NCBI GenBank assembly: GCA_964484505.1
Contig: CAZAFB010000002.1
Coordinates: 9,679 to 73,678 of the forward strand
Direction: 5' to 3'
Length of the DNA stretch: 64,000 nt
Source of the DNA: an uncultured Bdellovibrionales bacterium
Lineage (GTDB): Bacteria; Patescibacteriota; Minisyncoccia; Moranbacterales; GWC2-37-73
The position numbers and the translations under genes are program-made. The notes under the pieces were generated by a model. The model was not told the origin of the DNA. It saw nothing but the letters and a program-made list of their open reading frames with translations, and searched no databases. The number at the start of each line of letters is the position of its first letter. Position 1 is the stretch's first letter. Positions 1 through 40,357 of this stretch are shown here, piece after piece.

Positions 1-1594
1 CAGCCACAGTAAGGGCTTGACCGAAGCTAGAGCTGCTTTCTCCGGTAATATAAACATTAGCATCGGATCCTGCGATCATCGTTGAACTGTAACCCCCTCC
101 GGAATTTTGATAAAACAAATAAGTTCTACCCGCACTTGAACTATAACTCCTTGCTCCCACTACCAAATCAATTTTACCGTCTGAATTAAAATCTCCCGAA
201 TTAACAAAATTACCAAAACTCGATGAGCTTTCTCCTGTTACGATTACATCCGCAGAATTAGCAGTGTCAGGATATGAATCATCATTATAAAAGATATACG
301 CACGTCCATAGTCTGTATTATAAGTATAAGCTCCTACCGCAAGATCGGTTTTTCCATCGGAATTGAAATCGCCCTTAGTCAAAGCTGTTCCAAAATTGGA
401 AGCTGCCTCTCCAGTTATTATCACATCAGCCCCTATTACACCTTTGGAAGAAATATTATTATTGTAAAATACATATACCCTGCCAGCACTTGAATTATAA
501 GCTGGCGCTCCTATTACAAGATCAATTTTTCCATCTGAATTATAATCACCCACTTCCATAAAACCAGATCCGATCATTGACCCACTCTCCCCATTTATCA
601 CCGTCGCAGTTGTACTTTGACCGGGCGCGGTGAATGAAAGCGTCGGATCAAGGGCGATAGGATAACGCTCGGTTTTGATGTTCAGTTCGACAGCAATGGT
701 GGAATTGATGTCATCAATGAGCCAATCAGAATAATCCTTGGTACCATATTTGTCGATGAAAAACGGCCTGGGGATGATGAAGTCGGGAGCTTGATCTTCT
801 TGGGTTGAATTGCTATTTTTCAGATCTTCAGCCACCACTTTTTGGGCACGTTCAAGGAGACTCGGATCTACTTGGGCTTTTGCTTGTTCGTTTTGTTGGT
901 CCTGGTCACTGAAATAATACACTTCGACTTCCCCATCCTCATTGAGTTTTAGTTTGGCATTCTTGAAAGCATAGGCTTCTTCTTCGTGTCCGTTGCCTTT
1001 TTTATATACCAACCAGTTTTTGAGTTTTCTTTCACCTGAAGTCTGTTCTTTCTGGTAACCATAATAAAGCGCTTTTCTGTCGTCTTTAGTTTGGTACTTG
1101 ATGTATTGTTTTTCGTTTTTGGCTTCTTCGATTTTCGTAAGATCTTGATCTGCTTGCTGGCTTGGTGTCGGACTTTCCATGGTAAGTGTTTTTGCGGAAA
1201 TTCCTTGGGAATTTTTATCTTCCATGAAGATGGAACGTTGGCTGTCCAGCTTGATTTCGACAGGCTCTGCGTAGTTTTTGGGAAGATTTACAGAAAAATT
1301 TGCTTTCTTCTCTTCTTGCTGCTGGTCAGCATAGTGAATTTCCAATCCTACACTGCCATCATCTTTTATTTGATAATATTTGCCATCTTCGGAATCTCCA
1401 ATTTGAACGGTTGGAATTTGGTTGAAATCATTAATAATTCTATCCTTTATCGGCTCGACGGATTCCAATTCGGTCTGCAAAGTAAGCGGTTTGTCCTGAC
1501 GATTCCACATTTTAACCACCACAAAAACCAACACGCCAATAACAGCGGCAATTCCCAAGAAAGACAGCAATATTTTTTTATTTATATGCTCCAT
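1..1594 (-). CDS. FG-GAP (integrin-alpha beta-propeller) repeat protein, N-terminal part; C-terminus lies beyond window start
   Basis: ATG at 1592-1594 (minus strand) gives MEHINKKILLSFLGIAAVIGVLVFVVV, an N-terminal TM anchor. The same frame further in gives repeated DFNSDGKxDLAVGA / YIFYNDD / GESSSSFG units typical of FG-GAP repeats. Spot checks of the frame found no stop codons. It is absent from the ORF track because it runs off the window edge. Confidence 0.6.
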   Translation of the reverse strand, partial: MEHINKKILLSFLGIAAVIGVLVFVVVKMWNRQDKPLTLQTELESVEPIKDRIINDFNQIPTVQIGDSEDGKYYQIKDDGSVGLEIHYADQQQEEKKANFSVNLPKNYAEPVEIKLDSQRSIFMEDKNSQGISAKTLTMESPTPSQQADQDLTKIEEAKNEKQYIKYQTKDDRKALYYGYQKEQTSGERKLKNWLVYKKGNGHEEEAYAFKNAKLKLNEDGEVEVYYFSDQDQQNEQAKAQVDPSLLERAQKVVAEDLKNSNSTQEDQAPDFIIPRPFFIDKYGTKDYSDWLIDDINSTIAVELNIKTERYPIALDPTLSFTAPGQSTTATVINGESGSMIGSGFMEVGDYNSDGKIDLVIGAPAYNSSAGRVYVFYNNNISSKGVIGADVIITGEAASNFGTALTKGDFNSDGKTDLAVGAYTYNTDYGRAYIFYNDDSYPDTANSADVIVTGESSSSFGNFVNSGDFNSDGKIDLVVGARSYSSSAGRTYLFYQNSGGGYSSTMIAGSDANVYITGESSSSFGQALTVA

Positions 1595-1628
1595 TTGAAA
1601 TTTTTTGAGGACCGGTTCCTTTTTTTAA

Positions 1629-4600
1629 CTATTTAGCAAGGACAAAGGCGGCACTTTTTGCAGTTATTGTGCCGTCAGTATTGGTTTGACACACATACAC
1701 CTCATATTGTCCCCCGGCAAAATCCTTGCTTAATGATATTTCCCAGTTGCCATTATTGTCAGCAATCGTACCGGCAGTTGAAATTTGGCCATCCGAACCA
1801 TAGACGAAAACCGTAATTGAACGATTGCTAGGCACTGTTCCTGTCGCACTCAAAATAACATTGGCGGTTTCATTCTCCACAAATGCGGCATTGATGATAA
1901 TGAAATTATCATTGATTTCGCCTGAAAATTTCGGGTTGGAAAAACTTATTTTATCCCCTTTGTTTCCGTCGGAAGCTTCCAATGGATTATAACCATAGCG
2001 AAGTTCATCGCCATCTAGGAAAGTGTCACCATCGGTATCATATGAATAGGGATTCGTGCCGAGGCGATTTTCTTCTTCATCCACAAGCCCGTCTCCATCA
2101 GAGTCTACCGGCCCGTTGAAAGATTCGGTTGTTTGCGTTTTGACTGTTGGCACCGCTTCGGTCTCGTCCTTGCTTTCCACAATCCACCAGTCGAATGAAA
2201 TATCTTCCGTCACATTACCCTTAACTGAAACAACAAATCCCTCGCTTGGTTTCTTTTGGGTTACGGCGAGCGGATATTCGGCTGCCACTTTTGCCGTTAC
2301 GAATATCTTGGAATTATCAGTGACCGCCTTGGTTTTAATTTCCACATTGCTATTGTTTGCCCTGATGACAGCTTCCCCTATGGTTTTGGCTTCCGGATCC
2401 GTAATTTTAACCGTAAACACTCCTGCAACCATTTCTGCAGCGGTAATTTTGCCATCGAGCAAATCAACATTTCCTATTTCGTCTTTGTATATCATCTTTT
2501 GCACATCAAGCGCAATGGCGAAATCGAGAATTGCTTGATTTTGAGCATTGATCAGTTCCATTTGACTTTCCAATGTGGTGATTCGATTAACTTGGGCATT
2601 GAGCTGACTGCTCAAATCAGCAACTATCGTAGATTGGGATGCGATCGATTGTGTCAACTGAGCTTGAGCCTCGGTTATAATTCTGTTTACCTTGTCCTCA
2701 ACATCCATTTCGGCGATTCTTTGAGATACTTCTTCTTCCACCTTTTCCACGGTGAGCGATTTATTTCTGCGAGAGATGAGCACTTGGATAATTCCTTCTC
2801 CTTGTTGGATAGGCTCAAGAGCAACACCGACAGTAGAATCGCCGGAGTTTGCTTTCATAACATACCCTGGCTTGGTGGCTGCAGTAAGAGAATCTCCCGG
2901 ATTAATCTGTCCGTTTTCTGTGGATACTTTGGCGGGAACTTGTCCGAGCATACCGACGATGACGTAATTGTTGTCGAATTCCCTGCCCGGCTGAGCATTA
3001 CCCAACACTGAAGGAGAAGTGGAGACAATGCCCATAAGGTCAGGATCTTCTGCTCGAGTACAGCGCTTAACAGCATTGGAATTGTTGGTGTCTACGCATA
3101 CTGCTTCCCCAGGAGCAAGATCATGATCTTTTGTTTTGAAGAATTCGGCGTAGTCCGCGCTTCCATTAGTCCAAGCGTTGGAGTTATTAACATAAGCAGG
3201 GCTGGTACCGTCGCTATTCCAGTCTACATAGAACTTATAGGTGGCAGGGCTGGTTACGCCGATTCCCACGTTTCCTGAGCCGTTGATGGTTAGATAGGTA
3301 TTTGATCCTGCAGCTGCGCCGGAACCTATTTTGAAGAAGTCATCGGTATCATCTTGTCCTACATAGAAATCACGGGTGTTGCCGTCAAAGAGAACCAGTT
3401 GATCAGTGGCTGTTCCAGCTCCGAGGGTAATTGATGATTGACTAGTATCGGAACTGGTCATGGTCAAGATGCCGGTATTTCCGGTTGATAGGTTAGCGTA
3501 GTTGGAAGAATTGTAGGAAAGTCTGAGGCCATTGGTTGTGCCAAATATATCCAAGCTTGCTCCTGGCGTGGTGGTGCCAATGCCGAGGCGGCTATTGGTA
3601 TCATCCCAATACATTGTGGAGAATGCAGTCCAGGTACCGGCATTATTATAGAGCATCTGACCTTCTGTTCCGGAAGGCATACCGGATCCTGCCGCTGCCC
3701 AATATCCAGCCCCTGTTCCATCGGAAGTCCATACTTGACCGGAGGTTCCGGCAGAGCCAATGAAATATGCTCCGTAGGTGGATATGTCATAGCCATCGAC
3801 AGTACCGGAGATAATAAGATTGCCATTGATATTTGTATTTCCATTTACATCAAAAAGATACCCTGGGTCGCTGGTTCCGATTCCTACATTGCCATCTTGT
3901 TCTATAACTAAACGATTCAAACCACTGGTAAACATATTGATTCCATAATATCCGGAAACATAAGCTCCACTTTCGCTACCTGCATATGGTGTCGGGCGAT
4001 GAAATCCAAAACCGTAATGGTTCAAATACAATCCATTATAGGTAAAGTCATCATCAGATGTATTTGTGATACCGGGAGAATCATTATCCGTAGCACTTGC
4101 TCTGGAAATCTTGAGAATTCCGTTATTCAAATCAAGTTTTTCTCCCGGACTTGTCGTGCCAATGCCGATATTTGTTCCATTGTCATATATATTGGAATTT
4201 TCCAGGGCACTCGTTCCATTGAAGCGTGGAATGTAATTGTCTGTTCCGGAAATGGATGAAGCGGTTGCGTAATATGAACCATGTTGTCCATCGAGGAGGT
4301 CGGCGTTGAGGTTGGTATTGAGTGTTGTTGAGGTTACGGCTAATGGAGCTGTTCCTGTTGCCAGAGTTGAGGTGAGTTGTCCAGACATATTTAGTGTAGT
4401 GATTCCGGAAATCGCTCCTGCGCTTGAAATGTCCCAATCATTGCTATTGATAGCAATATCATCACCGCCGTCACCGAGTACCACTTGTCCATTTGCAGTA
4501 AGGGTTCCGTTGGACGTCAAGTTCGTGATAGCTGTAATTCCTGCCGGAAAAGTAACGTTCTTGTCTCTATCATAATATTCAGCATTTCTTCTTGCCGCTG

Positions 4601-7600
4601 GATAACCGCCCATCCACTCTATTCCATACAAAGTAAACGGATTCGCATATGTGGCAGATGCAATTGAAAATGTAATTCTAACTTGACCATATTGGGATGC
4701 GTTTGCGCTATACCATATAGGTGTATGAGGTATATAAACATGTCCAGGCCAGTTTGAAGTAGTACCATTGGTTATTTCCGTCCATCCATTGGTATTGTGA
4801 TAAGCTTCAATCTTGAAATTAACATTGTTTCCATTGGTTGAACAATATACATATAAGGCATTAAGAGAAATATATCCTGTACCGCCAGCCGCGTAGTCCC
4901 AAGTTAATCTATAATATCCCGAGCCACCAACGCTTGGCGCAGGTATGGCATTAACACTAGTTGATTGGCCTTCTCCAATCATCAAGTCTTTTAGATTATT
5001 TGTTGAAAGTCTTGTTGATGGCGTCCAAGTAGAACCATCTGCAGATTCTTCCTGCGAATATGCCGGTATAAATCTGAATTTATTATTGAATTGTCCATGG
5101 AAAAGCGCCATTTCTTCTACAGTTGGCGTTCCAAGATTGCTAGTTACGGTATTGAGAGCATTTTTCACTCCGGTTATTGTTCCGTTTACGGTCAAGGTTC
5201 CATTTACAGTTAACAAGTTACTATTAAGAGAAAGGAGGTCCGTATCAGAAGTATGACCTATGTTGGTGCCATCCAATCTTATATTATCAATAGTAGCAAT
5301 AGATCCAGTGTAGGAATTAGAAGTATTTGATAAAGTTAGAGCGTTGCTATATGTTCCAGAAAGCGAAGCATTAAGCAATAAGCCTGAGCCATCAATACCG
5401 TGCGATGTGTCGTCAACATAAAGACCTCCATCAGCCCTAAAATATTGTGGCGTATATATGTTCTTGGCAATATTCTGGTTAATTCTGAACCAAGTAGTGT
5501 CAGTGGAAGTCAATTCACCAACTTGAGTTGTGCCGTTATAGACTTTAATTGTTCCATTGGTATAAATATTGCCATTAACCGAAAGTTTTTCTCCCGGACT
5601 TGTCGTGCCAATGCCGATATTTGTTCCATTGTCATATATATTGGAATTTTCCAGGGCACTCGTTCCATTGAAGCGTGGAATGTAATTGTCTGTTCCGGAA
5701 ATGGATGAAGCGGTTGCGTAATATGAACCATGTTGTCCATCGAGGAGGTCGGCGTTGAGGTTGGTATTGAGAGTGGTTGAAGTCACGGCAAATGGCGCCG
5801 TGCCGGTTGCCAGAGTTGAAGTGAGTTGTCCAGACATTCCGATTGTCGTAACTCCGGAAAATGCTCCAGCGGTTGAAACGTCCCAGCTACTGGAATTTAC
5901 CGCAATAGTGTCTCCTCCATCTCCAATAGTTAGCGCTCCGGTAGTCGTCAAAGTTCCGGAAATATTATTGCTTCCGATTGTTCCTCCAGAAATCGTGATG
6001 GTATCGGCAACATATCCGTCAGCAATCGCATTACCACCCCAGGTTGCGTTCGAAATAGTCGAACCATTTATTGATATGAAACTGCTATTGGAATATATCC
6101 TCAGTGTACCATCAGCATCCAAAGATTGAATACCAGCTCTAAATGTTCCGCCGCTAGTTCCAGAAATGAGCCAAGTAGCTGAAGAGCCTGTGCCCATGGT
6201 AACATTCATACCTCCAGTATCTATACCATTGGTTGATCCCCAGCTACTACTGCGACCAGTTGTATAAACTCTGGAAAATGTCGGGCTGCTTGTTGTGAGG
6301 ACTGCTTGATTTAAATATGAAGCAAATTGATTACCATCCCAAAGATCAGCATTAAGATTGGAGACCAAAGTGGTTGAGGATACTGCTAACGGCGCCGTGC
6401 CAGTTGCAATTGTCGAAATCAATTGATTGTCAGTCCTGATTGCCCCACCGACAACATCAATTTTTGTCCCAGGACTTGTCGTTCCAATTCCAACATTTCC
6501 AGAATTTTTTATGGTCATCTTGACATCAGACATTGACACATTCGTGCCGTCCAGTACACCATTTAACGCAAAATGAAGATCACCAGTACCCCAAGTTCCA
6601 GTCCTTTGATGGTATATGGCTGATTTTATTGAATTTCCTCCTGCCACATATCCCTGAAAACCAATACCAGTCACTTCATTAGAAGCCAAAGGAGCCCCGA
6701 TCACTAATCCCACTTGGTTAGTGTTTGTGTCAACAATATGAGTTTTTGCTATCGAACTCGTCGTTCCAATTCCCACACTGCCCCCTACCGGATTAAGAGC
6801 GAGACTTCCATCATTAGCTATCCCTGTGTGCTTAGACTGAATGAAAGAATAACCAGCAGAACCCGCTCCCGCCACCGCACCAAGTTTGACTCCAACGTCA
6901 TTTAGTCCAGAATCAGTATCGAAACTCATTATTCCATAAGTAGTAGCATCTCCGGAAGTTCCAAGAATTTGTAACTTAGCCTGTGGACTCGTCGTTCCAA
7001 TTCCGACATTACCACTCGAATCTATACGAAGTCTTTCCGTACCGCCGGTTGAAAGTCCCAATGTGTCGGCAATCGGATTATAAATTCCCGTATTCTTGTC
7101 TCCCGTAAAAGTGAGGCTTGGAAGCGCTGCTGTTCCGGAGCCCATTCCGACGGTTCCGTTAAGATAAAGACTTCCGTTTTGGATAGCACTTGATGTCGAA
7201 TCAACGAGACGGGTAATGTCTGTGCGATAATAATCCTCAAATTCTCCGCGATTGTAGTACAATTGGGTCTGCTGTTCAGGAGTTAAATAGGCATCAAAAA
7301 CAGCCAAGCCCGCAATTTGAGCGTTTGCTTGATATGCGCCAGCATCATCCGAACCGATATACAAAGTTTTTCCCGTCGGATCTTGCGGTGTCCAACTGGC
7401 ACTTGAAGTATAACTGTTTCCATTAAGATAACAACGATTGTAGTTCCAATACCATCCGCAAGAAAGATGATTCCAGCCGTATCTGGTCACATCAGTCGTT
7501 GAAGTCGTTGATGTGGTCACCCATGCAGAACCGTTCCAATGATCGATAGAGAAACGATCATTCGTCGCATCCAAACGAACCCGTAATTCATTGGGGATGT

Positions 7601-10600
7601 ATAAAAGATATTTATCCGTATTATCACTTGTGATTGCGCGAGTCCATTGAGGCTTGAACCAGAAAGAAAAACCTCCCTTTTCTGATTTATAACTTGCCGG
7701 TACTGGGTATGACAATTTTTCTCCTGCGCGTGTAATTTCAGCAGTCGTGGTTGGGACATATGTTGTCGGAAAATATACGCTGCCGTTCGCCGCACTACGT
7801 TCAACTTGGATTCCATCAATATAAATGTTGCGGCTGGCGGATGGAAAATAAACTCCCACATCCCAGTTATTTGCGGCAGTGCTATCAAATTCACCGGTCA
7901 AACGATACCAACCATCCCCCAAAGGAGTGTAAGTAGTGGAAAGCGCGGTCAATCCATCATCTGTTCTAGCATAAAGACTTGCTATGGTCGAAGACATGTC
8001 AGCCCCCCAATAGCTTGTTTCATTTCTCCAGACATATGCTGAAACTTGGTGCTTCGTACCGGCAGTAACCTCTGAAAGATCGACTGTTTGGAAAACGCGA
8101 CAGGCAGCAGTGGAAGTCATATTTCCCGAATAAGTGCCATGCAGTGATTTGCCGGTCGATTGCGAAACAGAACATCCGGAACTTGCACTCCACTCACTTG
8201 GCGTCGATTCAAAAGAAGAATTTAGCAAAATATTCTTGCGCGATTCTTCCATATATATACCGAAATTTCCAGTCTTTGTTCCGGTGTCATAATAATAGTT
8301 ATTGGAATCAAACCCGCGATCTATTCGAGGCTCATTGGCGTTCTTGCTGACATATTTCAAACTGTTTTCATCAAGCGCCACCGCGCTACCGCTTGAAGCA
8401 TCAGTTCTTTGGAATGTTCCTACTTCTTTGCGAGAACCATCGATCGTGCCTTCGAAAGGAAGATGCAAGACGATATGCGATGAGAAATTGGAAGAGTTAT
8501 TGAGTCCGACATATCCGGTGTTTATGTATGAAGTGGAAAGAGTCCCTGTACTCACCGAACCTCCATACAATTCGCCTGATACACGTATACTTCCTCGCTG
8601 ATATGTGCGATTGCTTTGCTGAAGCATCACCAAATCACTCCTTTGATAATCCTCTATCGGCGCTTTGTCATTGTATATCTGAAGCACTTCGGCTTTGGTA
8701 AGACTACGACCAAAGATGGCAAAATCGGAAATCAAGGAATCAGCTCTGCCGCCCGCACTTGATTTGCTTCCCACATATAGCAGCGTATTTGTAGCCAACT
8801 GCTGAGTCTGGGCTGTCCATGAGGTCGCCGTAGCGACATATTCAATCCCGTCGAAATTTAAAACAAGTCCGGAAGTTGCATCCCATCTTACCGATACATA
8901 ATGATCTGTTCCGCCAACAAATGTTTGTGCCGGGGAGGAAACGGAAACTGTGGTCCAATTACTGCCGTTATACATCTGCGCATAAACCTTATCATCAGCC
9001 GCGCTATAGAAAATCTGAATAACATTCGGAACCTGCATAAGATAAAGGTCAGTTGCTGGCTTGTCATATGGCCACTCCGGTCTCCACCAAAATGACACTG
9101 TTCCTTTTGCAGGATCGATCAAAAAGTCGCTGCTCTCCGTGTTGCCGGTTCCGCGCCAGGCGTAATAATAGAGTGTTTCCTCGCCGCGGTTTCTTTGATT
9201 TGTGCCATTATTATAGATAAGTGAAGTTTCATATGGCACACCATTGGTGGTGTTGTAATCCGCTTCAATTTGACAACCATCCAATTGAATTTGTTTGCTC
9301 GCTTTGACGTTTACTCCATAATTAATCGCTCCGCCTGTTCCCGTGACTGTTCCCGAAATCTTATACCACCCACCCTCAACAGGTTTATATGAAGTAGCTA
9401 TAGCGCCATTGGCATAAAGCTCAACCACGGAGGAATCAACTGCACTGCGCACTGATCCTGATGTCGTATTTAACGCATAACAATAAAAGGGATAGCTTTG
9501 TCCGCTGGTAAGCGTATGCGAACGATAAGCGTTTCCGCCGGTAGCATTGGTATCACCAAGCGTAGCGGAATATGATTGGTGCTTCTTGTAGCCTGTCGTG
9601 GTGGTGAAAGTTTCCAAACCGCTGTTTGTCCATCCGCTTATTGAGCCACCGTCTTCAAATGAGGCATATTGGAAAAGATTACGTCTGCCGTTTTCCACCC
9701 AAACACCTTTGCCAATGTTTGTTTTTTCAAAGCGCGGAGTGTTGTTATATACATAATCATGGGTTATATATCCTGAGTCTGCAGTATAGGTAGCAGATGA
9801 ACCACTGGAAGTATCCGTTCTGGTATAATAGTCAGTATTTCCGCGAGATGATGAAAGTGAGTTTTGCATCGGCAAATAGAAAAGCAAATCATCGGCAATC
9901 ATTGAATTAGATAATCTCTGACCAGTTGGCAAATCGATATATGTGGAGCCTACTTTCAATCCGAGGTTTGTGTTGTCGCCGACAATATTGAGCAATCCTT
10001 CCGGGTTGGTCGTTCCAATGCCAACGCTTCCTGAAGCGCTGATCCGAAGACGTTCCGTTCCTGCCGTGGAAAAATTCAAAGTGTCATCGCCAGAGCTGAA
10101 CATTCCCGTGTTGGCATCGTTGTTGAAAGAAAAATTTGCATTTGACGCGCTTCCCTGATTGCTATATGCATATATATTGCCTACGCTCGTGATATCATTT
10201 GCGCCAAAGGTGATGTTGCCATTGGCAACCTCCAGGCTGGAACTTGGACTGGAAGTTCCGATTCCGAGTCTTCCGTTTAAATTATCCCAAAAAAATGAAC
10301 CGTTGTTTTGAGTGAGAAGTCCCCCGGTTCCGGCAAAAACCACTGATCCTTGCGTAAATCCGGTGGGAGTTATTGCCCCGGCAATGTTCGTGGCATACAC
10401 GTTTGCCCAACGATATGTGCCTGATCCTAAATTATATGTGTTATCAGCATCCGGTCCGAGATTTCCGGCAATCTGCAACTTGAAATTCGCCGGATTTGTC
10501 GTCCCAATGCCTAGATTTCCTGTACTTTGCTGCAGGAAGACTTGCCCGGAATTGAAGTTAAAATCTCCTGCACTGCCTACTGTCAACCTGGTCGTATCCG

Positions 10601-13600
10601 CTGTTTCCAAGTTTATACTATTGGCAGTACTAGTACCGAGATACATCGTATTGTCAGAATATATGTTAGCACCTGTGCCAAGTCCGCTTCCGGCAATATA
10701 TATGTTATATGTATCAGTAACTTGAAATCTTTTAGAGGGGTTTGTCGTTCCTATTCCGATATTCGTTCCATCGTTATATAGCAACGAATTCGCAACCCAT
10801 CCGGAACCATTGTTGCGTAAGGTTTGCCCGCTTGTGCCGCTTGGCAATGCGCCGCCGCCAGTTAAGTTAACTCCGTTCCAATATAGGTTTCCGCTGACGT
10901 TATACATCTTGTCGGTCACTGTTCCCGGTGCAGTCGTCTGCGCAAGACGAAGGCGACCATTTACATCAAGCGCCTCGGCAGGAGAAGTTGTGTTTATTCC
11001 AACCAAGCCATTATTCAAAACCAAAACGTCGCTATCCCATCCGGCAGCTCCTCTTGTTCCAAACTGCAGTCTAGCATAAGCATTTGTTGTATCGTAATAT
11101 ACTGCGCTTATACCGGCAGCGATGCTTCCGCTAGAAGTGCCTCTGAAGCCTATCCCGGACCACGTGTTATTTGTTCCGTTGGAATTTCTTATTATCAATT
11201 CCTCACCTCTTCCCCAAAGACTCGTGCTCGAATCTGATTTATTCACCTCCAATACAGCAATTGGATTTGTGGTACCAATACCGACATTGCCACCGTTGAA
11301 AGTAAAACCTTGTGTCTGGTTAGTATTGAATTGGAATTGATTGGAACCATATATGATATTGTTACTCGTGTTATTAAAATACAGATTCGCACCACTGCCA
11401 TCACCAATTTGAAGCGATCTGGCCAGACCGGACAAGATAACGTCACCATTGACATCCAATTTCTTTCCCGGACTTGTCGTCCCGATTCCCACATTGCCTT
11501 GAACATAAAGTCCGTTTGTGGGCGCACTATTTCCATAGTCACTCGTTATAGCCAAAGAGCCAACCTTTACAGGCAGTGCCGACCCGCCATCAGAAAAGAA
11601 TCCCGCATATGTTCCAGGTGAATAAATTTGACCGCCGATTCTGATTGCGCCATTTACATCCAAAGTGCGCGCGGGACTCGTTGTCCCAATTCCGACATTG
11701 CCACCAAAATATGATTTTGTTGAACCGGCGGTATAAATTGCAAAATTATTCGTCGAGCCTTTAACTAAATCAAAAACATATACACCATATTGCGTTCCGA
11801 TCGTTCCGGCACCGCTACCGTCATTGACCATCAGGCCATATGCATTGTTAGTAACATGTCCTGCTCCCGAATCAACTCTTGTCCAAAGAGCATGCGCATA
11901 ATCAGTTGTTCCACCGCTTCCATTGTTCCCTATCAACGACAAAACGCCCGTAACCGAGCTTACAGTTCCGCTTGTTATATTTGAACCGGTATTCAATCGC
12001 AAACCTTGCTTAAGTCCGGTATCTGCAATACCAAATGCTGTGTTGATAAATGCTCCATATTGTTCACTGGCGACAGCGGTTGAATATGTCTTCGAAACAG
12101 CAAGCATTGCTCCCGGATTTGAAGTTCCGATTCCGAAATTGCCTCCCATAAAATAACTGTTTCCATTTGTACTTATCTTGGTAGCAACGCCAGAATCGCT
12201 TGTTATATTTAGATATGCATCACCATTGTTTTCCAGTCCGAGACCGCCTCTGAAATTATCCCCACTGTTTTCAAATATTCTGAATGCATAGGTATTATCT
12301 ACTTGAGCTTGAATAGTTCCTTCTACATCAAATTTGTAAGCGGGACTTGTCGTTCCGATTCCCACATTGGTTCCGTTGTTATACAAAACCGAATTTGCAA
12401 TCCATGAAGTTCCGTTGTGACGGAGAGTTTGTCCGCTCGTTCCACTAGGAAGCGCGCCACCGCCGGAAAGATTGACTCCGTTCCAATATAGCGCGCCACT
12501 GACGTTGTAAAGTTTATCGGTCGTCGTAGCAGGCGCGGTTGTCTGCGCAAGACGAAGGCGACCGTTAACATCCAGAATTTCAGCAGGTGATGTTGTGCCG
12601 ATTCCAACGTTGCCACTGAAAAATCCATCTACACTAAAAATATCTCTCCATCTCAAAGAATCACTGCCCAGATCTCTTGTATCATTAGCACTTGGATAAA
12701 TACCGTTGGAAGTAAAATTTAATCTGTTAAATCCAGCAACATATACTTGTAATGTATCGTCTGCGCTTTCATAAAATCCAGTATCTCCATCGCCAAAGGA
12801 AAGTCCGCTCGCAGAAAATGTATAGCTCGTATCACTGATATGAAATCTAGTTGCAGGACTCGTCGTTCCGATTCCCACACGATTATTTGTCGAATCGATG
12901 TTTAAAATGCTGGTGCCGGATGCGTTTTGGAAATTTAGCGCGCTTGTTCCATTTGCCAGCATCCAGGGTTGCGGTTGCATCAGAGTCACTCCGCCGGCTG
13001 CATCCAAAACAACATCTCCGTTGTTAAAAGTGCGCAGCGTCAAATCATTTGATTCGAAAAGTTCGCCAACTTCGATCGTGAACGGCGCATTGGTTTTGAT
13101 ATTCGAAGCAGTTTGATTTGTGAAAATCAAATCATATGCCATCGAAACATCCCCGGAAGCAGTGAAAGAAGTCGGCACATTGAAAGATGCCTGAGTTGAA
13201 GAAATCGTCATCACGTCCGTGCCGCTCGCATTGAGCGTCAAAAGATTCCCGGTTCCATCGGAGCGAATGAAGAGACCTCCGGCGGCAGCACCCGTGTTGG
13301 AGTTATAGAAATTCGCGGCATAATCATTTACCGAAACATCAAGATCAATCGGGCCGTTCAGGTCAAGCGTGCCATTGACGGTCAACATATTACTCGCAAG
13401 ATTCAAAAGGTCGGTGTCAGAGGTGTGTCCGATTGTCGTGCCGTTAAGATAGAGATTATCTACCGTTGCGGCAGTTATATTTTGCAGTGCGCGAGCGGAA
13501 GTCAAAACGCTCGTGCCTCCCATGCGAAGTTCCGCACTGCCGATGATGTCAACATAGCTTGCGCCAGTTGCCAAATATGTCGAAGAAAAAGTCGTTACAT

Positions 13601-14330
13601 CACCGATCGCTCCAGCATTGATATCGATTCCATTGATAGTCTCATCAGTATTCAAAACCATCTGCCCTGACTCGTTGACGTAATATGAACTGGATTGGAA
13701 ATTCAAATTGCCGGTTGGATTCAAGGTCAAGGTTGTTGTTGAGTTTATGTCTCCACCGTTCACATTCACATCTCCGCTAACTGTCAAATTACCGGAAGTG
13801 TCAGTTGTCACAATGTGCGCATTAGCGCCACTAGTGGCACTGTCCAACCCATCAAGCAAATCAGAATTGAAAGCATATCCCGAAGCGCCGACTTTTTTTC
13901 TGGGACTCATCTCACTGTCTGATCCAACTTTGATGCCTAAATAATATGTCGAGTTAAAATCAAGATTGATCGCATTGTCACCGGCAACAGTATCACCGAT
14001 CATGATGGAGAAAATTCCATTGGTAACAGTTACAGCTCGCGCTGTCGGACTTCCGACCGTGCCGCGAGCAGTCCAAACGGGAGTGCCGCCACTAGCCGCG
14101 GCATACAAACTAATGACCATATTGTAACTGCCATCAGCAACCGCAACGCCCGAAGAATTTGTTAATTTTCCCTGATAACTAATTTCTTTCGTGATTGCAG
14201 CATGCGCATATTTTGAATAGACATATACGGAAACAATAACCAAAGACAACGACAAAAAACTTGCTACCATCTTTCGCAATCGAATTTTTTTTGCGTATTT
14301 GCTATTGTTTTTTATATTTCTTTCGTTCAT
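1629..14330 (-). CDS. Giant (4233 aa) membrane-anchored surface protein: phage tail-fibre-like repeats (about 40 copies of N[VI]GIGTTSP), LDGxxxxxY tail-fibre motifs, coiled coil, thrombospondin-type-3-like Ca-binding repeats, C-terminal Ig-like domain
   Basis: Single uninterrupted ORF with an N-terminal hydrophobic anchor (MVASFLSLSLVIVSVYVYS). It has periodic GNVGIGTTSP / LDVNG / LYxNG motifs and two LNADLLDGQHGSYYATASSISGTDNYIPRF segments. Towards the C-terminus there is a coiled coil (SQLNAQVNRITTLESQMELINAQ) followed by DSDGDGLVDEEE...TNPYSYDTDGDTFLDGDEL (DxDxDG Ca-binding). Confidence 0.85.
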   Translation of the reverse strand: MNERNIKNNSKYAKKIRLRKMVASFLSLSLVIVSVYVYSKYAHAAITKEISYQGKLTNSSGVAVADGSYNMVISLYAAASGGTPVWTARGTVGSPTARAVTVTNGIFSIMIGDTVAGDNAINLDFNSTYYLGIKVGSDSEMSPRKKVGASGYAFNSDLLDGLDSATSGANAHIVTTDTSGNLTVSGDVNVNGGDINSTTTLTLNPTGNLNFQSSSYYVNESGQMVLNTDETINGIDINAGAIGDVTTFSSTYLATGASYVDIIGSAELRMGGTSVLTSARALQNITAATVDNLYLNGTTIGHTSDTDLLNLASNMLTVNGTLDLNGPIDLDVSVNDYAANFYNSNTGAAAGGLFIRSDGTGNLLTLNASGTDVMTISSTQASFNVPTSFTASGDVSMAYDLIFTNQTASNIKTNAPFTIEVGELFESNDLTLRTFNNGDVVLDAAGGVTLMQPQPWMLANGTSALNFQNASGTSILNIDSTNNRVGIGTTSPATRFHISDTSYTFSASGLSFGDGDTGFYESADDTLQVYVAGFNRLNFTSNGIYPSANDTRDLGSDSLRWRDIFSVDGFFSGNVGIGTTSPAEILDVNGRLRLAQTTAPATTTDKLYNVSGALYWNGVNLSGGGALPSGTSGQTLRHNGTSWIANSVLYNNGTNVGIGTTSPAYKFDVEGTIQAQVDNTYAFRIFENSGDNFRGGLGLENNGDAYLNITSDSGVATKISTNGNSYFMGGNFGIGTSNPGAMLAVSKTYSTAVASEQYGAFINTAFGIADTGLKQGLRLNTGSNITSGTVSSVTGVLSLIGNNGSGGTTDYAHALWTRVDSGAGHVTNNAYGLMVNDGSGAGTIGTQYGVYVFDLVKGSTNNFAIYTAGSTKSYFGGNVGIGTTSPARTLDVNGAIRIGGQIYSPGTYAGFFSDGGSALPVKVGSLAITSDYGNSAPTNGLYVQGNVGIGTTSPGKKLDVNGDVILSGLARSLQIGDGSGANLYFNNTSNNIIYGSNQFQFNTNQTQGFTFNGGNVGIGTTNPIAVLEVNKSDSSTSLWGRGEELIIRNSNGTNNTWSGIGFRGTSSGSIAAGISAVYYDTTNAYARLQFGTRGAAGWDSDVLVLNNGLVGINTTSPAEALDVNGRLRLAQTTAPGTVTDKMYNVSGNLYWNGVNLTGGGALPSGTSGQTLRNNGSGWVANSLLYNDGTNIGIGTTNPSKRFQVTDTYNIYIAGSGLGTGANIYSDNTMYLGTSTANSINLETADTTRLTVGSAGDFNFNSGQVFLQQSTGNLGIGTTNPANFKLQIAGNLGPDADNTYNLGSGTYRWANVYATNIAGAITPTGFTQGSVVFAGTGGLLTQNNGSFFWDNLNGRLGIGTSSPSSSLEVANGNITFGANDITSVGNIYAYSNQGSASNANFSFNNDANTGMFSSGDDTLNFSTAGTERLRISASGSVGIGTTNPEGLLNIVGDNTNLGLKVGSTYIDLPTGQRLSNSMIADDLLFYLPMQNSLSSSRGNTDYYTRTDTSSGSSATYTADSGYITHDYVYNNTPRFEKTNIGKGVWVENGRRNLFQYASFEDGGSISGWTNSGLETFTTTTGYKKHQSYSATLGDTNATGGNAYRSHTLTSGQSYPFYCYALNTTSGSVRSAVDSSVVELYANGAIATSYKPVEGGWYKISGTVTGTGGAINYGVNVKASKQIQLDGCQIEADYNTTNGVPYETSLIYNNGTNQRNRGEETLYYYAWRGTGNTESSDFLIDPAKGTVSFWWRPEWPYDKPATDLYLMQVPNVIQIFYSAADDKVYAQMYNGSNWTTVSVSSPAQTFVGGTDHYVSVRWDATSGLVLNFDGIEYVATATSWTAQTQQLATNTLLYVGSKSSAGGRADSLISDFAIFGRSLTKAEVLQIYNDKAPIEDYQRSDLVMLQQSNRTYQRGSIRVSGELYGGSVSTGTLSTSYINTGYVGLNNSSNFSSHIVLHLPFEGTIDGSRKEVGTFQRTDASSGSAVALDENSLKYVSKNANEPRIDRGFDSNNYYYDTGTKTGNFGIYMEESRKNILLNSSFESTPSEWSASSGCSVSQSTGKSLHGTYSGNMTSTAACRVFQTVDLSEVTAGTKHQVSAYVWRNETSYWGADMSSTIASLYARTDDGLTALSTTYTPLGDGWYRLTGEFDSTAANNWDVGVYFPSASRNIYIDGIQVERSAANGSVYFPTTYVPTTTAEITRAGEKLSYPVPASYKSEKGGFSFWFKPQWTRAITSDNTDKYLLYIPNELRVRLDATNDRFSIDHWNGSAWVTTSTTSTTDVTRYGWNHLSCGWYWNYNRCYLNGNSYTSSASWTPQDPTGKTLYIGSDDAGAYQANAQIAGLAVFDAYLTPEQQTQLYYNRGEFEDYYRTDITRLVDSTSSAIQNGSLYLNGTVGMGSGTAALPSLTFTGDKNTGIYNPIADTLGLSTGGTERLRIDSSGNVGIGTTSPQAKLQILGTSGDATTYGIMSFDTDSGLNDVGVKLGAVAGAGSAGYSFIQSKHTGIANDGSLALNPVGGSVGIGTTSSIAKTHIVDTNTNQVGLVIGAPLASNEVTGIGFQGYVAGGNSIKSAIYHQRTGTWGTGDLHFALNGVLDGTNVSMSDVKMTIKNSGNVGIGTTSPGTKIDVVGGAIRTDNQLISTIATGTAPLAVSSTTLVSNLNADLWDGNQFASYLNQAVLTTSSPTFSRVYTTGRSSSWGSTNGIDTGGMNVTMGTGSSATWLISGTSGGTFRAGIQSLDADGTLRIYSNSSFISINGSTISNATWGGNAIADGYVADTITISGGTIGSNNISGTLTTTGALTIGDGGDTIAVNSSSWDVSTAGAFSGVTTIGMSGQLTSTLATGTAPFAVTSTTLNTNLNADLLDGQHGSYYATASSISGTDNYIPRFNGTSALENSNIYDNGTNIGIGTTSPGEKLSVNGNIYTNGTIKVYNGTTQVGELTSTDTTWFRINQNIAKNIYTPQYFRADGGLYVDDTSHGIDGSGLLLNASLSGTYSNALTLSNTSNSYTGSIATIDNIRLDGTNIGHTSDTDLLSLNSNLLTVNGTLTVNGTITGVKNALNTVTSNLGTPTVEEMALFHGQFNNKFRFIPAYSQEESADGSTWTPSTRLSTNNLKDLMIGEGQSTSVNAIPAPSVGGSGYYRLTWDYAAGGTGYISLNALYVYCSTNGNNVNFKIEAYHNTNGWTEITNGTTSNWPGHVYIPHTPIWYSANASQYGQVRITFSIASATYANPFTLYGIEWMGGYPAARRNAEYYDRDKNVTFPAGITAITNLTSNGTLTANGQVVLGDGGDDIAINSNDWDISSAGAISGITTLNMSGQLTSTLATGTAPLAVTSTTLNTNLNADLLDGQHGSYYATASSISGTDNYIPRFNGTSALENSNIYDNGTNIGIGTTSPGEKLDLNNGILKISRASATDNDSPGITNTSDDDFTYNGLYLNHYGFGFHRPTPYAGSESGAYVSGYYGINMFTSGLNRLVIEQDGNVGIGTSDPGYLFDVNGNTNINGNLIISGTVDGYDISTYGAYFIGSAGTSGQVWTSDGTGAGYWAAAGSGMPSGTEGQMLYNNAGTWTAFSTMYWDDTNSRLGIGTTTPGASLDIFGTTNGLRLSYNSSNYANLSTGNTGILTMTSSDTSQSSITLGAGTATDQLVLFDGNTRDFYVGQDDTDDFFKIGSGAAAGSNTYLTINGSGNVGIGVTSPATYKFYVDWNSDGTSPAYVNNSNAWTNGSADYAEFFKTKDHDLAPGEAVCVDTNNSNAVKRCTRAEDPDLMGIVSTSPSVLGNAQPGREFDNNYVIVGMLGQVPAKVSTENGQINPGDSLTAATKPGYVMKANSGDSTVGVALEPIQQGEGIIQVLISRRNKSLTVEKVEEEVSQRIAEMDVEDKVNRIITEAQAQLTQSIASQSTIVADLSSQLNAQVNRITTLESQMELINAQNQAILDFAIALDVQKMIYKDEIGNVDLLDGKITAAEMVAGVFTVKITDPEAKTIGEAVIRANNSNVEIKTKAVTDNSKIFVTAKVAAEYPLAVTQKKPSEGFVVSVKGNVTEDISFDWWIVESKDETEAVPTVKTQTTESFNGPVDSDGDGLVDEEENRLGTNPYSYDTDGDTFLDGDELRYGYNPLEASDGNKGDKISFSNPKFSGEINDNFIIINAAFVENETANVILSATGTVPSNRSITVFVYGSDGQISTAGTIADNNGNWEISLSKDFAGGQYEVYVCQTNTDGTITAKSAAFVLAK
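4134..4322. repeat. Intragenic duplication copy 1 (189 bp, identical to 5583-5771); similarity extends to about 4125-4470
   Basis: Base-by-base comparison with 5583-5771 shows identity. It encodes the repeated protein segment SGQLTSTLATGTAP(F/L)AVTSTTLNTNLNADLLDGQHGSYYATASSISGTDNYIPRFNGTSALENSNIYDNGTNIGIGTTSPGEKL. Confidence 0.8.
5583..5771. repeat. Intragenic duplication copy 2 (identical to 4134-4322); similarity extends to about 5575-5920
   Basis: Same evidence as copy 1. Identity decays gradually on both flanks. Confidence 0.8.
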
Positions 14331-14353
14331 TTTTCCGTTGATGCAAATCCTTT

Positions 14354-14496
14354 CTCTATTTTCGTCTTTCCTAAACCACTCTCTTTTTTTCTATCAAACT
14401 CATTTCCTAGAAAATAGTTACATGGATAAATGAAAATGGTTCAAGAAAATGGAAAGAAGAAACATGAATCATTTTTCTATTTTCGTCTTTCCTAAA
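14354..14496. promoter_or_regulatory. Two direct repeats of about 22-60 bp (core ttctattttcgtctttcctaaa at 14354-14375 and 14475-14496) in the 5' leader/promoter region of the giant gene
   Basis: Exact 21/22-bp core repeated 121 bp apart. Both copies are followed by similar T-rich tails (ttttttctatcaaactcatttcc vs ttttcttttttctgcttaacaaatttc). They lie immediately upstream (minus strand) of the start codon at 14330. Confidence 0.4.
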
Positions 14497-14542
14497 ACGA
14501 TTTTCTTTTTTCTGCTTAACAAATTTCTTATTTACTAAAATT

Positions 14543-14983
14543 TCATTCCTTCGGTACAACGTTTATCGATCTTACTTTTTGATTCGTGTCCACATAGATA
14601 TTCAAACTTCCGTCATCATTCTGTTCGATTTGATAGGACCCCTTTATTCCGTTTATTTGCTTACTTTTCTCACTGTTGCGAAAAATCAAAAATCCTCCAA
14701 TCATCAAACCAACCAATAAAATCAAGATTGCCACATAACGCCAAGTCAACCTATTCGCTTTTTCCTTTTCCGTAATTTTTTCCTCAATTATTTCATGTTG
14801 CACTTCAGCTTTGTCCGAGACCCTTTCCAGATATTCCAAAACGTCTTCTCTGGTAACCATCCATTTGCCATCTTTTTTGATCGCTCTGAGACGCTTCTTT
14901 CGTACCAAAAGACCCAGATAATTTGAGTCATATGGGGTCAGCTTTTCAGCCTCTTTAAGTGTGATATATGTCTTTTCCTGCAT
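14543..14983 (-). CDS. Small membrane-anchored DNA-binding protein: N-terminal excisionase/MerR-type helix-turn-helix, central TM helix, C-terminal extracytoplasmic tail
   Basis: ITLKEAEKLTPYDSNYLGLLVRKKRLRAIKKDGKWMVTREDVLEYL resembles HTH_17/excisionase-family DNA-binding domains. It is followed by a hydrophobic stretch WRYVAILILLVGLMIGGFLIF. Confidence 0.55.
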   Translation of the reverse strand: MQEKTYITLKEAEKLTPYDSNYLGLLVRKKRLRAIKKDGKWMVTREDVLEYLERVSDKAEVQHEIIEEKITEKEKANRLTWRYVAILILLVGLMIGGFLIFRNSEKSKQINGIKGSYQIEQNDDGSLNIYVDTNQKVRSINVVPKE

Positions 14984-15086
14984 TTTGCTTTATAAAAGCC
15001 TTTATTTAATTAAATTCAATACTGATTCAATACCCATTCAATACCATATTGGGTACAATTTTCCATGCTCAAATTATACCAAAAAA

Positions 15087-15107
15087 AACGGCTTTTTTAA
15101 AGCCGTT
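15087..15107 (-). terminator. Rho-independent terminator downstream of the LamG giant gene (9-bp stem aacggcttt/aaagccgtt, 3-nt loop, A-run 15081-15086 on plus strand, which is the U-tract on the minus strand)
   Basis: Perfect 9-bp inverted repeat at 15087-15095 / 15099-15107. It is flanked by an A-run on one side and T-rich sequence on the other. Confidence 0.5.
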
Positions 15108-15203
15108 AAACCAAGTTATCCACAGTGAGGGAAACGAATCAAAACGAAACAAATTCACGAATTAAAAACGAATAAAATTGCACGAACATGAAAATTCGTG
15201 TCC

Positions 15204-35169: not shown

Positions 35170-37366
<2,197 letters not shown>

Positions 37367-37406
37367 TGAAATTCATAAAATAATAACTTTACAAAACGCA
37401 CTTTTT

Positions 37407-37781: not shown

Positions 37782-38050
37782 GATTGGTTGTATTATTCGT
37801 TTTTGTTATTTATCCTTCTTTTGTCATTTTAACGCAAAACAAAGCTTCTGGCAAGCAAAAAACAGCATCTGAAATGCTGCATTATTGCGGGGCATTGTGA
37901 ACGACATTAGGATTTTCTTTGAGACAGAGAACAACTTGAACTTTGCTCCCCTCAACAAAGACTAATTTTAAAAACATTCGGAAATACAAAACCCCTCGAT
38001 GGGGGGAGGGGGTCTAAAATATGGGACATAGCCAGAAATGCTTCTTAAAA

Positions 38051-39684: not shown

Positions 39685-39707
39685 TTTTTTTATTAAAATT
39701 ATTTTAG

Positions 39708-40091: not shown

Positions 40092-40357
40092 ATTTTTAAA
40101 ATTATTTTTTAACCAAACAAAAAAGGACAGCCGAGCTGTTCAACCATAACGTTCATCCCAAGGGAATCCCGATTACGGAACTCGGACTGCCCCTTACTAC
40201 CCACAATCGGGCGTAAAGACACAATCTCCCTTAGGAAATTTAGTTATGGTTGAACACTTATAGCTTACTATAGATAATCAGCAAAAACAAGGACTTCCAA
40301 GATTGCTTCTGAACGTAATTTGGGGTAAATTAAAGATACAGAAATAACAATAAAACT

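What the first reader, a model, noticed from the sequence alone, without database searches (positions are those of the whole stretch)
4134..5771. Perfect 189-bp intragenic duplication, with a 112-aa protein repeat, 1449 bp apart inside the giant gene
Positions 4134-4322 are base-for-base identical to 5583-5771. Identity decays gradually on both flanks. Differences are not enriched at adenines, so this is not DGR-style mutagenesis. This is a signature of recent gene conversion or duplication within the giant gene. Alternatively it could be a collapsed or mis-assembled repeat. Either way it is a hotspot for length variation of the surface protein.
Basis: seen in the sequence. Interest (0 to 1): 0.5.

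Follow-up and report, generated by a model that had tools for sequence, protein, structure and literature searches.

The report
Gene-conversion tract inside giant surface-fibre gene
Two old copies of a roughly 120-residue tail-fibre-like module in a 4233-residue surface protein gene of an uncultivated Moranbacteria-like bacterium have been made identical over 189 bases, most likely by gene conversion; this is an ordinary event for repetitive surface genes, and another public assembly of the same strain still lacks it.

Summary
The core observation is exact. Window 4134-4322 equals 5583-5771 (189 nt), offset 1449 nt (483 codons, in frame), inside a minus-strand 4233-aa ORF (1629-14330).

One detail is wrong. 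Identity decays only on the high-coordinate side, which is upstream in the gene. On the other side it falls at once to background, where homology ends.

The two copies are old paralogues, not a fresh duplication. Just upstream of the tract, dS is 0.63 and then 1.49, and the 1.26 kb between the copies is unrelated.

The main new result comes from JGI contig Ga0248168_1000272. It is the only other public record that spans both copies.
- It matches the window over 14,981 nt except at 10 sites.
- All 10 are synonymous third-codon positions, and all lie in copy B of the "perfect" tract (4161-4239).
- So the two-copy arrangement is reproduced, but the perfection is not.

Best reading (about 0.7): a 79-189-nt A-to-B gene conversion that is polymorphic among near-clonal populations. 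A consensus or assembly artefact in the window's assembly remains possible (about 0.2).

No length variant was found. Relatives carry similar in-frame repeats with perfect runs of 49-127 nt, so this is common in the gene class. The segment between the copies holds a CBM32-like domain. Interest is low to moderate.

The parts
1629..14330 (-). Giant ORF of 4233 aa. Read directly from the sequence: an N-terminal hydrophobic signal or anchor, and a C-terminal coiled-coil. Detected: 14 'NVGIGTTSP' motifs, two Laminin_G_3 stretches, three tail-fibre-like modules, a CBM32-like domain, TSP3 repeats and a Big_13 domain.
   Evidence: Homologues of the C-terminal third carry PF11962 (Peptidase_G2 autoproteolytic cleavage domain) or PF13884 and are named from Moranbacteria and other Patescibacteria.
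5583..5948 (-). Module copy A (aa 2795-2916): GDGGDxIAxNS...MSGQLTSTLATGTAPFAVTSTTLNTNLNADLLDGQHGSYY...NIGIGTTSPGEKL
   Evidence: Weak PHROG tail-fibre matches: phrog_8443 (4.5e-5) and phrog_5342 (5.1e-5).
4134..4499 (-). Module copy B (aa 3278-3399), 483 codons downstream of copy A. 105 of 122 residues are identical to copy A.
5583..5771 (-). Perfect tract in copy A, the inferred donor. It is identical in the window and in the JGI contig.
4134..4322 (-). Perfect tract in copy B, the inferred recipient. Its 3' end in the gene (4134) coincides with the end of homology.
4161..4239 (-). The ten sites where JGI contig Ga0248168_1000272 differs from the window: 4161, 4164, 4167, 4173, 4218, 4224, 4230, 4233, 4236, 4239. 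All are synonymous third-codon positions. This span is the minimum conversion tract.
4323..4436 (-). Upstream part of copy B that is still diverged from copy A (5772-5885). There are 23 differences, mostly synonymous in the 57 nt nearest the tract. dS is 0.63 and then 1.49 further upstream.
6273..6458 (-). Third, much more diverged copy of the same module core (aa 2625-2686: LISTIATGTAPLAVSSTTLVSNLNADLWDG).
5196..5582 (-). X1 segment between the copies (aa 2917-3045). It resembles the phage virion structural family phrog_19195 (7e-15).
4599..5156 (-). X2 domain between the copies (aa 3059-3244). It is a beta-sandwich predicted with pLDDT mostly above 90. The best structural matches are CBM32 / F5-8 type C carbohydrate-binding modules and a phage tailspike.
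   Evidence: The domain is 43-65% identical in 30 homologues, several of which have a copy of the module directly after it.

Best explanation
The 189-nt perfect repeat is the footprint of intragenic, non-reciprocal homologous recombination (gene conversion). It lies between two anciently duplicated copies of a ~120-aa tail-fibre-like connector module in one giant surface-fibre gene of a Moranbacteria-like (Patescibacteria/CPR) bacterium.

Proposed sequence of events:
1. Copy A (5583-5948) served as template. A heteroduplex or repair tract of at least 79 and at most 189 nt overwrote copy B (4134-4322).
2. This erased ten synonymous differences that copy B still carries in another public record of the same strain.
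3. The tract stops at 4134 because homology stops there.
4. dS falls stepwise toward that end: 1.49, then 0.63, then 0.27 in the unconverted allele, then 0 in the window. The unconverted allele already has an 83-nt perfect run. Both points indicate repeated, nested conversions, not a single event.

Shown:
- The identity and its statistical excess.
- The old age of the paralogy.
- The existence of a second allele that differs only at those ten sites.
- The same two-copy arrangement in a second record.
- The frequency of similar repeats in related genes.

Inferred:
- That the window's allele exists in real cells and is not made by its assembler.
- The A-to-B direction.
- A RecA-type mechanism.

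The protein is unchanged by the event, because all ten differences are synonymous. The only consequence is a longer perfect direct repeat flanking a 1.26-kb segment that encodes a CBM32-like putative glycan-binding domain.
For: -: exact 189-nt identity, in frame, with an abrupt end on the 3' side in the gene.
- dS gradient (1.49 / 0.63 / 0); Fisher p = 1.4e-6; run-length permutation p about 5e-6 for the window and 0.003 for the 83-nt run in the JGI allele.
- JGI 3300022666 contig Ga0248168_1000272 is identical to the window over 14,981 nt except at 10 sites. All are in copy B at 4161-4239, all are synonymous, and at all of them the window's B equals A.
- background difference between the window and other public assemblies of the strain is 0 in 22,293 nt, 0 in 2,709 nt and 2 in 22,133 nt. 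Ten differences in 79 nt are therefore not ordinary SNPs.
- no third template for the JGI-type patch exists in the window.
- Inference from how de Bruijn graph assemblers work: a mosaic of B-upstream variants, A-type patch and B-downstream flank needs k-mers that link site 4161 to the unique base 4133, 28 nt away. Such k-mers arise at k above 27 only if reads contain them.
- MAGs of Moraniibacteriota, Shapirobacteria and others carry in-frame dispersed intragenic repeats of 86-99% identity, with perfect runs of 49-127 nt, in homologous genes.
Against: - No reads were available, so the window's allele is not verified at read level.
- The origin and assembly method of the window are unknown.
- Only one other record spans the tract, and it disagrees with the window exactly there. 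That is also what an error in one assembly would look like.
- The two records may come from overlapping or sister read sets, so "independent" is not proven.
- The direction of conversion rests on parsimony.
Confidence: 0.7

Rival explanations
1. Assembly, consensus or polishing artefact. Only the JGI-type allele (copy B with ten private synonymous variants) exists in cells. The window's assembler or a polishing or bubble-collapsing step replaced the B patch with the A sequence, creating a falsely perfect 189-nt repeat.
For: - The only other record that spans the tract disagrees with the window exactly and only there.
- The window comes from a different, unidentified assembly: it extends 1349 nt beyond the JGI contig end and was absent from every collection searched.
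- Other assemblies of this strain break inside the giant gene, so the gene is hard to assemble.
Against: - The mosaic keeps B-specific variants upstream (4323 onward) and the B-specific flank downstream (4133 and below). Only 27 nt of shared sequence separate the last converted site from unique sequence, so graph mis-threading at usual k (33 or more) would give a 1449-nt deletion or chimera, not this mosaic (inference).
- Reads carrying ten mismatches would not be mis-mapped onto the wrong copy by a polisher.
- The arrangement itself is reproduced.
Confidence: 0.2
2. Conversion in the reverse direction or from an unseen donor. The window's homogenised allele is the older state. The JGI allele acquired its ten synonymous differences by patchy conversion from a third paralogue elsewhere in the genome or from a co-occurring strain, or the JGI contig is a chimera of two strains.
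For: - The JGI allele is itself a mosaic: perfect runs of 83, 44 and 27 nt separated by two dense patches.
- Related strains at 98-99.5% identity exist in other runs.
Against: - No sequence in the 64-kb window matches the JGI patch better than copies A and B do.
- The patch divergence (dS 0.27) fits the divergence of the adjoining unconverted part (0.63) and so looks ancestral.
- This reading needs an additional unobserved donor that encodes the identical peptide.
Confidence: 0.08
3. Recent segmental duplication. The second copy was created recently, and the identity simply has not yet decayed.
For: Perfect identity over 189 nt.
Against: - The same module is 17-52% diverged at the nucleotide level immediately upstream, with dS 0.63-1.49 and dN up to 0.30.
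- The sequences flanking the two copies are unrelated on both outer sides.
- The [X2 domain + module] order is shared with distant homologues at about 40-55% protein identity.
- The JGI allele has private synonymous variants in copy B.
Confidence: 0.01
4. Functional constraint or programmed switch. The perfect identity is maintained because the two tracts act as a recombination substrate for reversible in-frame excision or duplication of the 483-codon cassette that carries the CBM32-like domain. That would be length or phase variation of an attachment fibre. Alternatively, the DNA or RNA of the tract has a function of its own.
For: - The repeats are direct, in frame, and bracket a discrete putative ligand-binding domain.
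- High DNA identity between repeats is the proposed basis of length variation in Periscope Proteins (PMC8201768).
Against: - The near-clonal JGI allele lacks the perfection without any change in the protein, so the perfection is not required.
- No length variant was found in any record.
- No Rfam family matches, and no site-specific recombinase is adjacent; the nearest is 38 kb away in a separate island.
- Only two copies exist, and they are not in a tandem array.
Confidence: 0.07

Closest known systems
Concerted evolution by intragenic recombination in repetitive bacterial surface-protein genes (Periscope Proteins such as SasG, Aap, Rib and Sgo_0707; PMC8201768)
   Same: A large secreted or surface protein. 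Repeats are kept highly identical at the DNA level by homologous recombination. In-frame direct repeats could change protein length.
   Different: There are only two dispersed copies (plus one diverged third copy), separated by 1.26 kb of unrelated coding sequence, and not a tandem array of near-identical domains. Only the 3' half of the module is homogenised. No length variation was observed. The organism is a CPR bacterium and the repeat is a tail-fibre-like connector, not an Ig, SHIRT or G5-type stalk domain.
Phage tail-fibre / tailspike-like proteins with a C-terminal intramolecular chaperone (Pfam PF13884 Peptidase_S74, PF11962 Peptidase_G2), including the 'peptidase G2 autoproteolytic cleavage domain-containing' proteins annotated in Patescibacteria MAGs
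   Same: The module matches PHROG tail-fibre families. Homologues of both the inter-copy region and the C-terminal third carry PF13884, PF11962 or PF07880. The modular, shuffled architecture is typical of fibre genes.
   Different: The gene sits in a cellular genome next to gyrB, ligA, gatCA and a type IV pilus cluster, not in a phage. It is 4233 aa long with an N-terminal hydrophobic anchor. Pfam did not detect the chaperone domain in this protein itself.
Antigenic variation by gene conversion from silent cassettes (Neisseria pilE/pilS, Borrelia vlsE; own knowledge, and reference 4 of PMC8201768)
   Same: Short, non-reciprocal conversion tracts between paralogous coding segments of a surface structure.
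   Different: Here donor and recipient are both parts of the same expressed ORF. The event homogenises rather than diversifies, and it is silent at the protein level.
Diversity-generating retroelement (DGR) template/variable repeat pairs
   Same: Two similar ~100-150-nt repeats associated with a ligand-binding surface protein.
   Different: There is no adenine-specific mismatch pattern. No reverse transcriptase was found among the 21 larger ORFs scanned. Both repeats are coding parts of the same gene, and in the window they are identical.

Membership tests
Intragenic gene conversion between paralogous repeats | The two copies are older paralogues: the flanks within the homologous unit are clearly diverged. 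| tested here: met
   dS is 0.63 (aa 2832-2854) and 1.49 (aa 2802-2831), against 0 in the tract. The outer flanks are unrelated.
Intragenic gene conversion between paralogous repeats | The run of identity is significantly longer than expected from the divergence of the rest of the alignment. | tested here: met
   Fisher p = 1.4e-6; permutation p about 5e-6.
Intragenic gene conversion between paralogous repeats | An unconverted allele exists in a close relative, and the converted allele equals the donor copy at every differing site. | tested here: met
   The JGI contig differs at 10 clustered sites, and at all of them the window's B equals A. There are 0 other differences in 14,981 nt.
Intragenic gene conversion between paralogous repeats | The converted allele is verified in primary reads, not produced by the assembler. 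| not testable with these tools
   No read access. Exact look-ups of guessed Logan fragment proteins failed. DNA scans found nothing.
Periscope Proteins (variable-length surface proteins) | A tandem array of long, highly identical repeats that form a stalk. | tested here: not met
   Only two similar copies, 1449 nt apart, with unrelated sequence between them. No other high-identity repeat exists in the gene.
Periscope Proteins (variable-length surface proteins) | Repeat-number or length variation between strains. | tested here: inconclusive
   The two records that span the region have the same length. No further spanning record could be found.
DGR target gene | A template/variable repeat pair whose mismatches fall at template adenines, with a nearby reverse transcriptase. 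| tested here: not met
   Differing sites show no A bias. No reverse-transcriptase domain was found in the 21 larger ORFs scanned; the window was not scanned exhaustively.
Tail-fibre-like proteins with a C-terminal intramolecular chaperone (PF11962 / PF13884) | Sequence homology of the fibre modules to phage tail-fibre families. | tested here: met
   PHROG tail-fibre and virion-structural hits for the module, X1 and the C-terminal part. There are hundreds of homologues, many with PF13884, PF11962 or PF07880.
Tail-fibre-like proteins with a C-terminal intramolecular chaperone (PF11962 / PF13884) | The chaperone/autoprotease domain is detectable in this protein. | tested here: inconclusive
   Pfam gave no PF11962 or PF13884 hit on this protein even at E up to 5. 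Homologues aligned to aa 3400-4000 do carry PF11962.
Assembly artefact (spurious or collapsed repeat) | The arrangement is not reproduced in another assembly. | tested here: not met
   JGI contig Ga0248168_1000272 has both copies at the same spacing, and its copy B carries its own variants.
Assembly artefact (spurious or collapsed repeat) | The sequence of one copy is overwritten by the other in one assembly only. | tested here: inconclusive
   This is exactly the pattern seen, but real polymorphism predicts the same pattern. Reads are needed.

The most novel reading that the evidence does not exclude
The homogenised direct repeats are a maintained recombination substrate. They would let this episymbiont-type bacterium excise or re-duplicate, in frame, a 483-residue cassette that carries a CBM32-like glycan-binding domain. 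The result would be a recombination-based length or specificity switch of a giant tail-fibre-like attachment protein in the Candidate Phyla Radiation. The allele difference between sister metagenomes would then be a snapshot of that system being re-armed.
Probability: 0.07. Interest if true: 0.55.

Novelty: new member of a known kind. Interest (0 to 1): 0.25.

Why it matters
The direct importance is small. The event is silent at the protein level, and this kind of repeat homogenisation is expected in modular fibre and surface genes.

It has two uses:
- It is a clean natural example of a short conversion tract (79-189 nt). It was caught as the only difference between two near-identical population genomes of an uncultivated CPR bacterium. 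That indicates intragenic recombination outpaces point mutation in these giant genes.
- It is a practical warning. The sequence of such repeats differs between public assemblies of the same strain, so repeat-level claims about giant CPR genes need read-level checks.

The perfect direct repeat does bracket a putative glycan-binding domain. If deletion alleles were found, that would bear on how these episymbionts vary host attachment.

Tried and rejected
Searches that returned nothing useful:
- Whole-protein homology search with the 4233-aa query timed out.
- The exact giant protein is not in the clustered protein collection.
- The genome-contig scan found only distant relatives, at most 77% nt identity. 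So there is no recent horizontal transfer of the module and no closer strain for a copy-number comparison.
- I tried to reach read-level evidence through Logan contigs by guessing the k=31 break points, looking up C-terminal fragments that start at aa 3390, 3377 and 3391. None is on record. Logan contig ends do not follow within-window repeats, so the guesses were unreliable.
- The ligA look-up failed.
- Other contigs that carry the neighbouring genes stop at window 7544 or 8236 and do not reach the repeat.
- Literature search for the sample and run accessions gave nothing, and so did a search for CPR giant tail-fibre proteins.
- PDB sequence search of the region gave only noise.
- Rfam found only the three tRNAs.
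- The AF2 monomer model of the module itself is poor (pLDDT below 50), so I make no fold claim for the module.

Readings rejected:
- DGR.
- Recent duplication.
- A larger 1449-nt tandem unit; the flanks are unrelated.
- An ordinary SNP cluster.


Full report
**1. Observation**

Window 4134-4322 and 5583-5771 are identical over 189 nt. The offset is 1449 nt, or 483 codons. Both tracts lie in a single ORF on the minus strand, 1629-14330, 4233 aa. Apart from a 34-nt pair in another gene, these are the only repeated 31-mers in the window. They form the only repeat above 85% identity in a self-comparison of the window.

In gene orientation, the homologous unit is a ~120-aa module:
- Copy A is aa 2795-2916 (window 5948-5583).
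- Copy B is aa 3278-3399 (window 4499-4134).

Nucleotide identity rises from background through 31/60, 43/60 and 50/60 to 189/189. It then drops at once to 19/60 after the codons for ...GEKL. The decay is therefore one-sided, not two-sided as reported.

**2. More than chance, and not a young duplicate**

Nei-Gojobori estimates between A and B:

| Region (aa) | dS | dN |
|---|---|---|
| 2802-2831 | 1.49 | 0.30 |
| 2832-2854 | 0.63 | 0.02 |
| 2855-2916 | 0 | 0 |

- Synonymously changed codons are 9 of 22 just upstream against 0 of 62 in the tract (Fisher p = 1.4e-6).
- A permutation of third-position differences gives p of about 5e-6 for a 189-nt run.
- Sequence outside the module is unrelated on both sides, and so is the 1.26 kb between the copies.
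- A third, far more diverged copy of the module core lies at aa 2625-2686.
- Distant homologues at about 40-55% protein identity share the order [X2 domain, module].

The paralogy is therefore old and the identity is secondary.

**3. A second public record lacks the perfection**

An exact-protein look-up found JGI metagenome 3300022666, contig Ga0248168_1000272, 105,865 bp. Its last 14,981 nt align to window 1350-16330 without gaps. There are exactly ten mismatches.

- The mismatches fall at window 4161, 4164, 4167, 4173, 4218, 4224, 4230, 4233, 4236 and 4239.
- All lie in copy B of the tract, and all are synonymous third-codon positions.
- At every one, the window's copy B carries the copy-A base.
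- Copy A is identical in the two records.
- In the JGI allele, the perfect A/B runs are 83, 44 and 27 nt. The 83-nt run is itself longer than expected (p about 0.003).

The window is not that contig: it continues 1349 nt beyond the contig's end.

Other public assemblies of the same strain give the background difference from the window:

| Record | Window span | Differences |
|---|---|---|
| Logan SRR6476076 | 8236-30528 | 0 in 22,293 nt |
| Logan SRR6476074 | 13858-16566 | 0 in 2,709 nt |
| JGI 3300022663, Ga0248167_1000297 | 25170-47302 | 2 isolated SNPs in 22,133 nt |

Ten differences in 79 nt are not ordinary polymorphism. They are one event.

**4. What the event is**

Three things fit intragenic gene conversion from A into B with a tract of 79-189 nt, superimposed on earlier conversions:
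- a mosaic recipient that keeps its own flanks;
- a donor-identical patch;
- a boundary at the end of homology.

The dS staircase and the patchy JGI allele point to those earlier conversions.

The alternative is that the window's assembler or polisher wrote the A sequence into B. I consider this less likely (about 0.2) for two reasons, both inferred:
- Only 27 nt of shared sequence separate the last converted site (4161) from unique downstream sequence (4133). At any usual k, the chimeric path needs k-mers that exist only if reads carry them. A mis-threaded repeat would give a 1449-nt deletion or chimera instead.
- Reads with ten mismatches are not mis-placed onto the wrong copy by mappers.

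Without reads this cannot be closed.

The reverse polarity, where the JGI patch was imported from an unseen third copy or strain, is possible but needs an extra donor. None exists in the window.

A mis-assembled arrangement is excluded. The JGI contig has both copies at the same spacing, and its copy B has private variants.

**5. Context and function**

The window is cellular. It carries:
- gyrB, NAD-ligase and gatC/gatA;
- three tRNAs;
- a type IV pilus cluster (PilM, PilB, PilT-like, PilC, prepilin peptidase) and a ComFC-like gene;
- a PAS histidine kinase;
- further giant proteins, one of 1774 aa with six Laminin_G_3 stretches and one of 2517 aa with RCC1 and fn3 domains.

GyrB is 80-82% identical to proteins named from Candidatus Moranbacteria / Moraniibacteriota, so the organism is a Patescibacteria (CPR) bacterium.

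Features of the giant protein:
- an N-terminal hydrophobic segment (read from the sequence);
- 14 'NVGIGTTSP' motifs;
- Laminin_G_3, TSP3 and Big_13 domains;
- PHROG tail-fibre and virion-structural similarities in the module, X1 and the C-terminal part;
- homologues that carry PF13884, PF11962 or PF07880, some of them named 'peptidase G2 autoproteolytic cleavage domain-containing protein' or 'T4-like proximal tail fiber' in CPR MAGs.

The segment between the two copies contains a strongly conserved ~190-aa domain, 43-65% identical in 30 homologues with 34 invariant columns. AlphaFold2 models it confidently as a beta-sandwich. Its best PDB matches are CBM32 / F5-8C carbohydrate-binding modules and a Klebsiella phage tailspike. 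The module itself is not modelled as a monomer (pLDDT below 50), which would be expected if it is part of an oligomeric fibre (inference).

The likely role of the protein is attachment to a glycan-bearing surface. This is inferred from the domain content and was not tested.

**6. How ordinary it is**

Homologous giant genes in unrelated MAGs contain in-frame dispersed repeats of 86-99% nucleotide identity, with perfect runs of 49-127 nt. Examples are Moraniibacteriota (L005), Shapirobacteria (L035) and others (L037, L047).

Homogenisation of repeats in surface-protein genes by intragenic recombination is well described. In Periscope Proteins, high DNA identity is proposed to enable gain and loss of repeats (PMC8201768).

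This locus does not meet that family's definition. It has two dispersed copies, no tandem array, and no observed length variation. DGR mutagenesis is excluded: there is no A bias and no reverse transcriptase among the ORFs scanned.

**7. Verdict**

- The core observation is exact. One flank description is wrong.
- The perfection is allele- or assembly-specific.
- Best explanation: a recent, protein-silent gene-conversion tract between old paralogous modules, polymorphic among near-clonal populations (0.7).
- Main rival: a consensus artefact in the window's assembly (0.2).
- The "length-variation hotspot" claim is unsupported by the data found here.
- Novelty: a new instance of a known phenomenon. 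Interest is about 0.25.
- The most novel reading not excluded is a recombination switch that excises or duplicates the CBM32-like cassette. Its probability is about 0.07.

Noticed in passing
window 37264-37389 and 46635-46770: A ~130-nt AT-rich intergenic element occurs twice at 78-82% identity. It is internally palindromic (CCTAATTCACC.AATAAAAT ... ATTTTATTAGGTGAATTAGG). One copy sits just upstream of, and overlapping, the gyrB start; the other lies between ligA and gatC. It has no Rfam match. It could be a REP/MITE-like element or a shared regulatory hairpin.
   Followed up: partly
window ~38000-43970: A low-GC stretch (0.33-0.34, against about 0.41 elsewhere) with an AT-skew flip. It holds small ORFs with no Pfam match and a large serine recombinase (42103-43728, +) whose 3' end overlaps tRNA-Asp, next to two tRNA-Met genes. 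It looks like an integrated element at a tRNA cluster. It is also present, 99.99% identical, in JGI 3300022663.
   Followed up: partly
window 7544 and 8236 (inside the giant gene): Two other public assemblies of the same strain end inside the giant gene at these positions: JGI Ga0248167_1000297 and Logan SRR6476076_18330. Neither end coincides with any repeat in the window. The cause is unknown; strain heterogeneity, a coverage drop, or a repeat elsewhere in the genome are possibilities.
   Followed up: no
window 27397-34950 (-): A 2517-aa protein with four RCC1-like beta-propeller regions and about seven PurAcPhosph_N/fn3 repeats. It contains the only other repeated 31-mer in the window (32634-32667 and 33639-33672).
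   Followed up: no
window 15204-20540 (-): A 1774-1778-aa protein with DUF2341 and six Laminin_G_3 stretches (with Toxin_R_bind_N similarity), directly upstream of the giant gene. In a related strain (Logan ERR14964770, L058), the neighbouring gene at this position is unrelated, although the small HTH gene next to it is 99.5% identical.
   Followed up: partly
window 10720-11010 and 12325-12615: A second, older in-frame intragenic repeat in the N-terminal half of the giant gene: 72% nt identity, offset 1605 nt, motif RLRLAQTTAP...YWNGVNL...GTSGQTLR. It shows no conversion tract.
   Followed up: no
window 50941-60309: A type IV pilus gene cluster (prepilin peptidase, PilC, PilT-like ATPase, PilB, PilM), with a ComFC-like gene at 60498-61301. 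This is typical of CPR bacteria and may be relevant to DNA uptake or host attachment alongside the giant fibres.
   Followed up: no
window 24032-24715 / 24799-25449, and 52056-52227 / 52577-52748: Tandem paralogous small genes at 65% and 83% nt identity respectively. One of the first pair (24035-24715) was scanned and has no Pfam family; the others were not scanned.
   Followed up: no
L005 1-240 vs 2800-3039 (Moraniibacteriota MAG JAAXWW010000007.1): A homologous giant gene in another MAG has a 240-nt in-frame repeat at 98.75% identity, with a 127-nt perfect run, 2799 nt apart. It has five copies of the same module. This suggests that module homogenisation is general in this gene class.
   Followed up: partly
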